Below are positions 44,201 to 47,200 of a DNA stretch of 64,000 nt, in pieces. Origin of the DNA: the human T2T-CHM13v2.0 reference genome, Homo sapiens; the NCBI RefSeq assembly GCF_009914755.1, contig NC_060930.1; one strand, 5' to 3'. Position numbers and translations under genes: made by a program. Position 1 is the stretch's first letter; each line of letters opens with the position of its first letter. Below the pieces are notes generated by a model that saw only the letters and a list, made by a program, of their open reading frames with translations, was not told the DNA's origin and did not search any database.

Positions 44201-47200
44201 CTTGGCACCTTCTCCCCAGCCTGCTAACTAAACCATCTGTTTTTAAGCAGAACATATCACTTAATTAATTTGTTTCAGCAATTCTCCTCTCCCCAAAATG
44301 TTCAAGAAGTACTGTAAAATAGAGACAGTAAACATGTAGTGCGCTGCAGTTTAGGAGGAGAAGGGGAGAAACTGGGCCTCTTGTACACACCCAGAAAAAG
44401 CCAGAAGGAATACATTATAATGGCAAGTGATTATCTCTGGGTAATGACAATATGAGTGATTTTTTTTCATTATTTCCAGCATTTCTATAAAGAATGCACA
44501 TTTTGTGAAGAAAACATTATTGACATGGTAATTAGGAGGACTGTAACAGCACAGAAATAATTCATATGATGGAAAGGGGAATATATTTGATAATTTAACA
44601 TTTTGCTATCATTCCACCAACATTTTTAAGCATGTGTTTTATTCTACCTTACTGGTTTTGGTTCATGTTTTATTAAATGCAACCTAAAATGTTTACTTTT
44701 TTGTTACACTTCCTTTTAAAACATTGCCAACACTGTTTTAGTACAAGTTGATTTTTCCTAAAGGAAGAGTTAAGAAAATTCTGGGATGATTTGATAGTTG
44801 CTTGAAAGTTGTTTAGCCTTAGTTCACACTAATCTGTTTGGCCATCATTTATGGCTTAGTGAACTTCAGAAATGTTTATTGTAGATAATGCCATCCACCT
44901 GCAATTGCCTGAGGCATGAAGGTATTCTCTTCAGCTGGCCATTGCATTCCCTTTCCTAAAGAATTATTACATTTACATTATTCTGTTTAAGTATATTTTG
45001 TTTAAGATAATTTACTAATTAAAACCATTTGTCAGGGATAGCCGAACCTCTTAGAATCAAGTAAAATGCATTAGGGAAGCTCGTTGTTTTTTGTTTGTTT
45101 TTTGAGACAGAGTCTCGTTCTGTCACCCAGGCTGGAGTGCAGTGGTGTGATCTTGGCTCACTGCAAGCTCCACTTCCTGGGTTCACGCCATTCTCCTGCC
45201 TCAGCCTCATGAGTAGCTGGGACTACAGACGCCTGCCACCATGCCCGGCTAATTTTTTGTATTTTTAGTAGAGACGGGGTTTCACTGTGTTAGCCAGGAT
45301 GGTCTCGACCTCCTGACCTTGTATCCACCTGCCTTGGCCTCCCAAAGTGCTGGGATTACAGGTGTGAGCCACTGTGCCCAGCCAGGAAGCTCATTGTTTA
45401 ATAGACTTTATGGTGAATCCTTATATGAAACAAATAATTATTGTGTAAAAGTTGCCTTCAGATGAACATTGTAGATCAATCTATATTTTCACAAATCAGG
45501 TTTCTAATTTGCCGTTAAAGCAAGATATACGGAGGACAGAAAGTATTTAAGTACAGTTTAGTATTTTTGGTTGTGTAATTTAATAAAATATAAATTATTT
45601 ATTTTTCTTTTTCCAGCAAATTCTGCCCAGCTGGTTGTAGAGACGTTCTGCTCTACAGAGCAGAATGTACATAGGCTAGGTACATACGCTAGGTAATATG
45701 TACCCATGTACATGGGTTAAGTAATATGGCTTTCCAATATTTACATTTCAGTGAGACTTAGACTTCAAAATAGCTAGAAAATAAAAGTATAAATTGTACC
45801 ATCTGTTCAAAAGGGAATTTTCAAAAATCAGGTTCAATAAATGTGAATTTTAAAAATCAGTACCAAAAAAGTGACAAATAAACATCAATTTCCTTTAAGT
45901 TGGATGGATGAGGGAGTGACTATTTTAAAGAAAATAATCCTGGAAAATGCTGGTAATTTTATCATAATAATATGATAGTGAGACTTGATGGCTAGTCTTT
46001 TGGAGATGTATCCTATAGCCTACAATTAATATTAAAAGAAATGGCAAAACCCACAATTACTTTTGCATCAACCTATTATGGAAAGCCATAGCTGCAATTA
46101 AATAAAAATTTTATAAAAAAGGTATTCACCATTGAATTCCTTCAATACTGGGTACTGTGAGAAACGAGAATATTTGTTGGCCAATGATGCTGTTAGATCC
46201 TGTTGCTCGTTGGCCTGTGAACCTGTCATCTTACAGCCAAGGAGGCCCTGGGACATGCCAAGTCCAGTGAGAGCTCTCAATAGGCAGGGTTCCTAGTATG
46301 AAGACCGGGGATCCCAAGGACAGTGGGAATAGCTGCTCAGCAGACCACTGAACTGATCTGGTTTTCATTCTGGGGTTTAGCGAGGGAGACAGGCCTGCAT
46401 GGGTCCTATAATATAAACGGTGTACTGGGTACCCTTTAGAATCACAAGGTGACAGACCTTCAGAAAAGACACTAGACCAGCAGTCCCGAACCTTTTTGGC
46501 AACAGGGACCACTTTTGTGAAAGACAGTTTTTCCACAGACGGGGTGGGGGATGGTTTCAGGATGAAAGTGTTCCACCTCAGATCACCAGGAATTAGATTC
46601 TCATAAGGAGCACACAGCCTAGATTCCTCACATGCGCAGTTGTCAGTAGGATTTGCACCCCTGTGAGAATCTAATGCCTTTGCTGATCTGACAAGAGGTA
46701 GAGCTCAGGCGGTAATGTGTGCTTGCCCACTCCTCACCTCCTGCTGTGTGGCCCGGTTCCTAACAGGCCACTGACCAGTACCAGTCCACAGCCTGGGGGC
46801 TTGGGGACCCATGCACTAGACAACATCCAGTCCAGGCTTGTCATTGTCCAGAGGAATGGGAAGCCAGGTCAAGAGCAGTGGAATGACTTGCATATACTTT
46901 GTGGAGTTAGAGGCAAAGCCAGGATGACAAGATAAATTGCTAAATTTAAATTCAGGACTTTTCCTCTTCAACTGGCTCCTCTGTTTTGTTTGGACCCAGG
47001 AGTCCAAACTGATGATAAGAAAGCTTTTTAATGAAAGAAAATTCAGGAACAATATACAGAAAATTCAGGAAAGATGAAAAAGCAACCTGCATTCTTATTA
47101 AAGAGTACGATCTTTACGATCTTTTTCTCTTCTAATTTTAATTCTTTTTTTCCTCCAAGATTAGGGAGGGTAGTATTTGCATCTGTTTCAGTATTCTCAT

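What the first reader, a model, noticed from the sequence alone, without database searches (positions are those of the whole stretch)
45019..45730. Multi-template insertion scar: mosaic of two local templates plus fold-back filler DNA
Seen, left to right: (a) 23 nt TTAAAACCATTTGTCAGGGATAG (45019-45041), identical to 43956-43978 about 1.1 kb upstream in an L3-like remnant; (b) 7-nt linker ccgaacc; (c) ~300 nt copied from 41337-41636, about 3.7 kb upstream; (d) at the right breakpoint, a fold-back ACGTTCTGCTCT-AC-AGAGCAGAATGT (45643-45668; 11/12 match, mismatch at a CpG); (e) 13-nt tandem copy tacataggctagg/tacatacgctagg (45668-45693); (f) perfect 16-nt palindrome ACCCATGTACATGGGT (45702-45717), with gtaatatg repeated on both sides. 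Established: iterated short templated, inverted and tandem insertions are hallmarks of polymerase-theta end joining and FoSTeS/MMBIR. Inference: this is one fossil germline repair event, and its filler DNA supplied the stop codon and donor of the pseudo-exon, i.e. exon birth from a repair scar.
Basis: partly seen in the sequence, partly recalled or inferred. Interest (0 to 1): 0.72.

Follow-up and report, generated by a model that had tools for sequence, protein, structure and literature searches.

The report
Old DNA-repair scar in DCBLD1 intron
A human DCBLD1 intron holds a patch made of two copied pieces of nearby DNA plus self-copied filler; it is likely the scar of one broken-chromosome repair in an ancestor of apes and Old World monkeys, possibly where a small piggyBac transposon once sat, and its exon-like part has no sign of being used.

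Summary
All six pieces are real. The copy covers the exon 5 acceptor and 30 nt of the exon (13 substitutions in 288 nt) and has no third copy in the genome search. The filler is far more self-templated than any other tile of the window or any shuffle. Best reading: one germline break patched by template switching and snap-back synthesis about 20-35 My ago, a known class (complex templated insertion; polymerase theta or MMBIR type). New lead: TTAA brackets the patch, both ends resemble the piggyBac MITE end (MER85/MER75), and the 7-nt linker can be built from a MER85 end. The break may therefore have been at such an element. Against this, almost no element remains, the copy looks younger than MER85, and no footprint class was found. 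'Exon birth' is unsupported: the acceptor is intact and donors exist, but both frames tested stop early and no annotated exon or protein uses it. Primate orthologues, the decisive test, were not available.

The parts
45019..45041 (+). 23-nt direct copy of 43956-43978; begins with TTAA (possible microhomology or target site)
   Evidence: exact match
45042..45048 (+). 7-nt linker; no local template found; can be built from two adjacent pieces of one MER85 end
45049..45646 (+). copy of 41337-41636 (end of intron 4, acceptor, first 30 nt of exon 5), split by an Alu
   Evidence: 275/288 identical
45090..45384 (-). Alu, closest to the window's AluY-type copies (subfamily name from recalled diagnostics), inserted after the copy was made; target duplication 45075-45089 / 45385-45399
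45617..45692 (+). predicted 76-nt pseudo-exon (acceptor identical to exon 5's; donor-like GT at 45680, 45693, 45708); stops at 45672-45674 or 45638-45640; use not shown
45643..45668 (.). fold-back at the right breakpoint, 11/12 arms; the mismatch is at the base that makes exon 5 Val in catarrhines and Ile in other primates
45647..45716 (.). self-templated filler: tandem 13-mers 45668-45693, inverted 8-mers 45679/45697, palindrome 45702-45717
45712..45720 (-). TTAA plus 5 nt identical to the terminus of the MER85/MER75 piggyBac MITEs, pointing into the patch; likely right boundary
41337..41636 (+). template 1 (3.7 kb upstream)
43956..43978 (+). template 2 (1.1 kb upstream)

Best explanation
The patch is a mosaic of two direct copies of nearby DCBLD1 DNA and about 70 nt of self-copied filler, likely written in one germline double-strand-break repair about 20-35 million years ago, later split by an Alu, and probably not used as an exon. 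Shown: the templates, the breakpoints, the filler structure and the Alu's later arrival. Inferred mechanism: the left broken end primed on the site 1.1 kb upstream (TTAA as probable microhomology) and copied 23 nt. It then switched through a short linker to the site 3.7 kb upstream and copied 300 nt. After disengaging inside exon 5 it went through several rounds of hairpin snap-back and loop-out synthesis (polymerase-theta-like) until it could join the right end. The copied acceptor is a by-product: if spliced it would give an early stop and likely nonsense-mediated decay.
For: Exact 23-nt match and sharp ends of both copies. No other genomic copy of the 300-nt piece or of the filler (the 26-nt tandem is unique at up to 3 mismatches). 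Filler self-coverage 75/88 nt, 0 of 6368 tiles, 0 of 20000 shuffles. A left-to-right parse from already-made sequence needs 16 pieces; only 13 of 3000 control segments need as few. Both templates lie within 4 kb upstream in direct orientation. Decay is similar across pieces. Complex multi-template germline insertions are a described class: 33 and 26 in two individuals (PMC8421209, section 10). Theta makes direct and inverted local insertions in several rounds (PMC7165422; PMC5728401) and does snap-back synthesis (PMC8470613). Age: copy 4.5% (95% 2.4-7.7) overall and 6.3% (3.4-10.8) without the identical 3' tract; the inner Alu has 5 private non-CpG changes in 222 sites; human-rhesus intron identity is 93.2% and human-marmoset 87.2% (PMC2268245); the copy has the Val base seen in all 14 catarrhine entries and not in 3 New World monkey, tarsier or colugo entries.
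Against: No orthologue was seen, so single-event origin, the empty site and junction microhomology are untested. A 288-nt tract from 3.7 kb away is atypical of theta alone (tracts rarely over 10 bp, distal templates under 0.1% of repair). The pieces were picked because they match, which biases the 'same age' argument. The fold-back arm reads as the Ile base, not the Val base; this needs a CpG decay, a polymerase error, or an older event with later gene conversion. The Val/Ile site changes repeatedly in mammals (7 non-primate entries have Val). A local LTR pair differs by only 25 of 336, which would allow an older date.
Confidence: 0.7

Rival explanations
1. The same repair, but the break was at a piggyBac MITE (MER85 or MER75 type) inserted at this TTAA. 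The element was excised or cut and its interior was replaced by gap-filling from nearby DNA, leaving TTAA at both ends and a few terminal bases: a Pack-TIR-like capture of an exon fragment. This names the cause of the break and overlaps the best explanation.
For: TTAA at 45019-45022 and 45717-45720. The right end matches 9 of 9 terminal bases of a 91-copy, roughly 138-nt family (control 1) and of a MER75-type family. The left end shares 6 further terminal bases after a 1-nt offset. Background: 8 and 22 such sites in 212,000 positions, joint 3e-7 for one family; 477 of 400,000 decoy elements given TTAA. The linker is covered over 10 nt by two adjacent pieces of one MER85 end: 87 of 20,000 random decoys and 590 of 20,000 shuffled ends do as well, and none of 6 local template sets does. 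Pack-TIRs take fillers mostly from under 5 kb, and 22 of 33 human cases arose after the elements were inactive (PMC8277862). PGBD5 can interact with MER75/MER85 ends (PMC12324416 preprint).
Against: The pattern was found after the fact and all tests were built after seeing it. The left 6-nt match also belongs to the local template, so it needs correction of the primer. Internal coverage of element bases 10-21 is not significant (30,007 of 100,000 decoys). [quoted passage not shown] Pack-TIR gaps are a median 4.6% of the element and skew internal, whereas here over 90% would be lost. No footprint class was found: of 15 tiny matches (control 4), 4 are paralogues of one repeat, 6 lie in LTR-like context and 5 remain; the 11 matches at 21-110 nt spacing (control 6) include no MER85 with filler. 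The filler parses better left-to-right (16 pieces) than from the right end (21 pieces, 1246 of 3000).
Confidence: 0.35
2. Several events: a plain local duplication (MMBIR/FoSTeS) first, then separate small template switches, slippage or a second break that built the hairpins and tandem at its edge.
For: The Alu shows that the site was hit again. Quasi-palindromes attract later switches (PMC8421209). The Ile/Val mismatch and the 83-nt identical tract hint at later editing.
Against: The filler starts exactly at the breakpoint, and its first pieces copy the end of the duplicated exon. All pieces are about equally decayed. The 83-nt tract is not significant when scanned (P 0.11).
Confidence: 0.15
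3. RNA-templated insertion: L1 machinery or a pre-mRNA fragment patched the site (TSIP class 1, or endonuclease-independent).
For: Both templates are on the transcribed gene in sense orientation; the left boundary starts TTAAAA, an L1-type target (recalled); experimental templated insertions of 73-414 bp exist (PMC5110952).
Against: No poly(A) tail or polyadenylation signal at the copy's end, no target duplication longer than 4 nt, unspliced content, templates out of transcript order (downstream piece first) and local rather than distant.
Confidence: 0.07
4. The scar became a working poison exon, or an exon mutually exclusive with exon 5, that tunes DCBLD1 through nonsense-mediated decay.
For: The acceptor region is identical to exon 5's; 83 nt are unchanged (Fisher P 0.023 against the 5' part). 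The donor at 45693 gives 76 nt, the same phase as the 73-nt exon 5, with 6 of 9 U1 matches like several native donors.
Against: No RefSeq exon among 10 transcripts (hub table). 0 of 115 proteins carry the peptides (weak, since decay isoforms are rarely listed). Sites with 6 or more U1 matches are common, 20 in this 6.8-kb intron. Constraint on the source alone makes the identical tract unremarkable (P 0.07).
Confidence: 0.1

Closest known systems
Complex germline MMB-TI (MMBIR-type templated insertion; Osia et al. 2021, PMC8421209)
   Same: Several template switches, nearby templates, direct and inverted pieces in one insertion
   Different: In the reference and about 20-35 My old rather than a variant; one piece is 300 nt from 3.7 kb away; junction microhomology not testable without the empty site
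Polymerase-theta templated insertions / SD-MMEJ (PMC7165422, PMC5728401)
   Same: Filler of 3-9 nt direct and inverted pieces copied from sequence within about 30 nt, in repeated rounds
   Different: Distal 23-nt and 300-nt templates are outside the usual range, so another polymerase or step is likely; enzyme not identifiable from sequence
Single-copy Pack-TIR by gap filling (Tan et al. 2021, PMC8277862)
   Same: Templates under 5 kb, 200-300 nt captured, exon fragment included, possible element ends and TTAA duplication
   Different: Only 5-6 terminal bases would remain; no DCBLD1, MER85 or MER75 entry in the paper's 12 supplementary files
TSIP class 2 (Onozawa and Aplan 2016, PMC5110952)
   Same: DNA patch at a break, no poly(A)
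   Different: TSIP donors are distant; here they are local and multiple

Membership tests
Complex templated insertion (MMB-TI / FoSTeS type) | Insert made of two or more identifiable templates | tested here: met
   43956-43978 and 41337-41636
Complex templated insertion (MMB-TI / FoSTeS type) | Microhomology at the switches | tested here: inconclusive
   No overlap between the two templates (7-nt linker); flank junctions need the empty site
Complex templated insertion (MMB-TI / FoSTeS type) | Absent from the ancestral allele, all pieces arising together | not testable with these tools
   No primate genomes held (no relatives)
Polymerase-theta TINS / SD-MMEJ | Short direct and inverted copies of sequence next to the junction | tested here: met
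Polymerase-theta TINS / SD-MMEJ | All tracts short (3-30 bp) and from flanking DNA | tested here: not met
   300-nt tract from 3.7 kb, 23-nt tract from 1.1 kb; range
Polymerase-theta TINS / SD-MMEJ | Dependence on POLQ | not testable with these tools
   fossil event
Pack-TIR / piggyBac MITE footprint | TTAA on both sides | tested here: met
   45019-45022 and 45717-45720; TTAA alone at both ends has chance 0.004
Pack-TIR / piggyBac MITE footprint | Recognisable element sequence (13-nt inverted repeats and arms) on both sides of the capture | tested here: not met
   Only 5 and 6 terminal bases plus a rearranged 10-nt piece; internal coverage not significant
Pack-TIR / piggyBac MITE footprint | Nearby parental copy | tested here: met
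   1.1 and 3.7 kb
Pack-TIR / piggyBac MITE footprint | Intact element at the orthologous site in outgroups | not testable with these tools
   no orthologues
TSIP class 1 / L1-mediated insertion | Poly(A) tail, polyadenylation signal and target duplication | tested here: not met
   none at the copy's end; longest flanking duplication seen is TTAA
Poison or mutually exclusive exon | Acceptor, donor and premature stop | tested here: met
Poison or mutually exclusive exon | Inclusion in transcripts | tested here: inconclusive
   not in the RefSeq table; 0 of 115 proteins; no RNA data

The most novel reading that the evidence does not exclude
This is the footprint of a primate piggyBac MITE whose body was destroyed and replaced by captured host DNA: a cut at the element's ends (PGBD3 in its last activity, or a domesticated nuclease such as PGBD5 later) was patched by template switching and theta-like filler, planting a duplicate exon 5 acceptor in DCBLD1. 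The hairpin arm may also preserve the ancestral Ile base that source and copy later lost together through gene conversion.
Probability: 0.3. Interest if true: 0.65.

Novelty: new member of a known kind. Interest (0 to 1): 0.42.

Why it matters
As it stands it is a clear fossil of multi-step template-switching repair in the primate germline, readable piece by piece, but such insertions are a described class. If the piggyBac reading holds, it would be a dated case of a 'seamless' transposon leaving a capture scar in the human lineage. It would also suggest that some unexplained local duplications mark vanished MITEs, and one look at a marmoset alignment tests it. The duplicate acceptor is a latent cryptic exon in DCBLD1: a variant that strengthens one donor would be predicted to cause decay of the message.

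Tried and rejected
Repeat-family origin of the filler: genome search gave only itself, the 26-nt tandem is unique at 3 mismatches, and Rfam found nothing in 40000-64000. Template for filler or linker within 40-50 kb: 3 and 1 near-matches of 12 nt, at or below control segments. Locating the empty site through a repeat spanning the junction: no genome match near either flank. Palindrome as evidence by itself: rejected, 3 of that size in the window. Hairpin just upstream of template 1 (41256-41325) as a stall site: z = -1.8, 13 of 200 shuffles as good, not used. Tiny TTAA-bounded elements as a family of MER85 footprints: fell to control level after removing paralogues and LTR-like sites; only L018 matches the inverted repeat for 10 nt. 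Wider spacings showed MER75-type families and no capture that I could identify; one search printed only the first 80 nt of each match and gave no loci. Orientation argument from end-specific bases: not significant. Gene conversion in the 3' 83 nt: P 0.008-0.015 for that position, 0.11 when scanned; left open. A direct protein search with the 18-residue pseudo-exon peptide was not possible; exon 3 was used instead. Literature: (DCBLD1 with duplication, cryptic-exon, MER85/piggyBac/templated-insertion terms) listed no paper on this locus; only the top 3, 20 and 15 rows were seen, and most subscription papers are outside the library.

Full report
Setting. The hub table places the finding in DCBLD1, between the exons at 41607-41679 and 48502-48635. 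Thirteen of 15 exons lie in the window and the gene starts before it, so these are exons 5 and 6 (inference).

Observation. Every piece is at the stated place. The 23-nt match to 43956-43978 is exact and ends sharply. The copy of 41337-41636 spans 45049-45646 and holds an antisense Alu (45090-45384) with a 15-nt target duplication that the source has once, so the Alu came later. Without it the copy has 275 matches, 13 substitutions and 2 gaps, and the last 83 nt are identical. The genome search finds only this locus and its source.

Filler. In 45643-45730, 75 of 88 nt are covered by internal direct or inverted repeats of 8 nt or more; 0 of 6368 window tiles and 0 of 20000 shuffles reach that. 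It folds at z = -3.8. It is not a known repeat: one genome match, and the 26-nt tandem is unique at up to 3 mismatches. It can be written left to right in 16 pieces, 14 of them copied from the preceding 60 nt; 13 of 3000 control segments are as compressible. Its first pieces copy the end of the duplicated exon, which ties it to the breakpoint.

Mechanism. Short direct and inverted copies made in repeated rounds are what polymerase theta leaves (PMC7165422, passages; PMC5728401, abstract and Discussion; PMC8470613, passages). The same source says primary tracts rarely exceed 10 bp and distal templates are under 0.1% of repair, so the 23-nt and 300-nt pieces fit template switching of the MMBIR or gap-repair type better. 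Complex multi-template insertions are ordinary germline variants: 33 and 26 in two individuals (PMC8421209, abstract and part 1 of section 10). I infer long-range switching followed by theta-like end processing in one repair. An L1-mediated origin fails its tests: no poly(A), no long target duplication (features from PMC5110952, part 1 of 4).

Age. Copy and source differ by 4.5% (95% 2.4-7.7), or 6.3% (3.4-10.8) without the identical tract. The inner Alu is closest to three AluY-type copies in the window (name from recalled diagnostics), has 5 private non-CpG changes in 222 sites and keeps 6 CpGs. Human-rhesus and human-marmoset intron identities of 93.2% and 87.2% (PMC2268245, passages) put the event near the ape-monkey split, about 20-35 My (inference). 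The copy ends in the Val base found in 14 of 14 catarrhine entries; 3 New World monkey entries, tarsier and colugo have Ile. Against a simple reading, the hairpin arm carries the Ile-type base, 7 non-primate entries also have Val, and a local LTR pair of a family I recall as anthropoid differs by only 25 of 336.

The piggyBac lead. TTAA opens the patch (45019-45022) and closes it (45717-45720). Read inward, the right end equals the first 9 bases of a family with 91 intact-ended copies of about 138 nt (control 1). Its size, TTAA duplication and 13-nt inverted repeats match MER85 as described in PMC2268245; a second family with the same terminus is MER75-type by recall. The left end shares 6 more terminal bases after a 1-nt offset. 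Such sites occur 22 and 8 times in 212,000 positions, the locus itself included, giving 3e-7 jointly for one family; 477 of 400,000 decoy elements match both ends as well, given TTAA. The linker, which none of 6 local template sets explains, is covered over 10 nt by two adjacent pieces of one MER85 end (87 of 20,000 random and 590 of 20,000 shuffled decoys; the end used, L026, is one of 2 of 14 copies that keep the CpG). Gap filling inside dead DNA transposons is known, uses templates mostly under 5 kb away and accounts for 22 of 33 human cases (PMC8277862, parts 1-3 of 10); its 12 supplementary files name no DCBLD1, MER85 or MER75 case. A search of 4 supplementary files of PMC2268245 found no DCBLD1, ROS1 or GOPC; I did not confirm that the MER85 table is among them.

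Evidence against the lead is substantial. The tests were made after the pattern was seen. Internal coverage is at chance (30,007 of 100,000). Divergence of 14 of the 91 MER85 copies predicts 23.5 substitutions against 13 seen (P 0.014), so a cut in the transposase era needs later homogenisation, and a later cut needs another nuclease; PGBD5 is a candidate only from a preprint (PMC12324416, passages). piggyBac normally excises cleanly (PMC7351741 and PMC3239208, passages). Fifteen tiny TTAA-bounded matches (control 4) fall to 5 after removing 4 paralogues and 6 LTR-like sites, and wider spacings gave no clear capture. I give the piggyBac cause about one in three.

Pseudo-exon. The acceptor and the 47 or more intronic bases before it equal exon 5's. 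Donor-like sites at 45680, 45693 and 45708 have 6 of 9 matches to the U1 consensus (recalled), within the native range of 5-9, but 20 such sites lie in this intron. The 76-nt form has exon 5's phase and stops at 45672-45674; spliced after exon 5 it stops at 45638-45640 inside the copied exon. RefSeq lists no exon here and 0 of 115 related proteins carry either peptide. Exon birth is possible but not shown.

Verdict. A real, well-preserved repair scar of a known class, with one unusual and cheaply testable twist. Family names for human piggyBac repeats were checked in PMC5753468 (passages). Searches listed no paper on this locus among the rows shown.

Noticed in passing
window 61180-61274: Near-perfect hairpin with a stem of about 40 bp in an intron (RNA -76.2 kcal/mol, z = -15); single copy in the genome search and no Rfam match. 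Could be a fold-back duplication or an unannotated hairpin RNA.
   Followed up: partly
window 21319-21373: Perfect 28-nt tandem duplication (period 27) in unique sequence.
   Followed up: no
window 32877-33214 and 34761-35104: Pair of LTR-like direct repeats 1.9 kb apart, 25 mismatches in 336 (THE1-type by recall); low divergence for that family; used only as a rough clock.
   Followed up: partly
window 46473-46820: High-copy repeat of about 350 nt (5321 candidates, about 81% identity; MER1-type by recall), 750 nt right of the scar.
   Followed up: no
window 41256-41325: AT-rich inverted repeat ending 11 nt before template 1; z = -1.8 only.
   Followed up: partly
L018 (G000:C1:69275076-69275095): 20-nt TTAA-bounded element that matches the MER85 inverted repeat for 10 nt; looks like a MER85 collapsed between its ends.
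   Followed up: partly
G000:C2:83941850-83942041 and G000:C6:61550969-61551163: MER85 copies whose end is duplicated 54-62 nt away with short intervening sequence, suggesting rearrangement at element ends.
   Followed up: no
window 41337-41553 versus 45049-45563: 10 of the 13 substitutions between source and copy are A/G on the sense strand, 7 with G in the copy; fits transcription-linked mutation bias (recalled).
   Followed up: no
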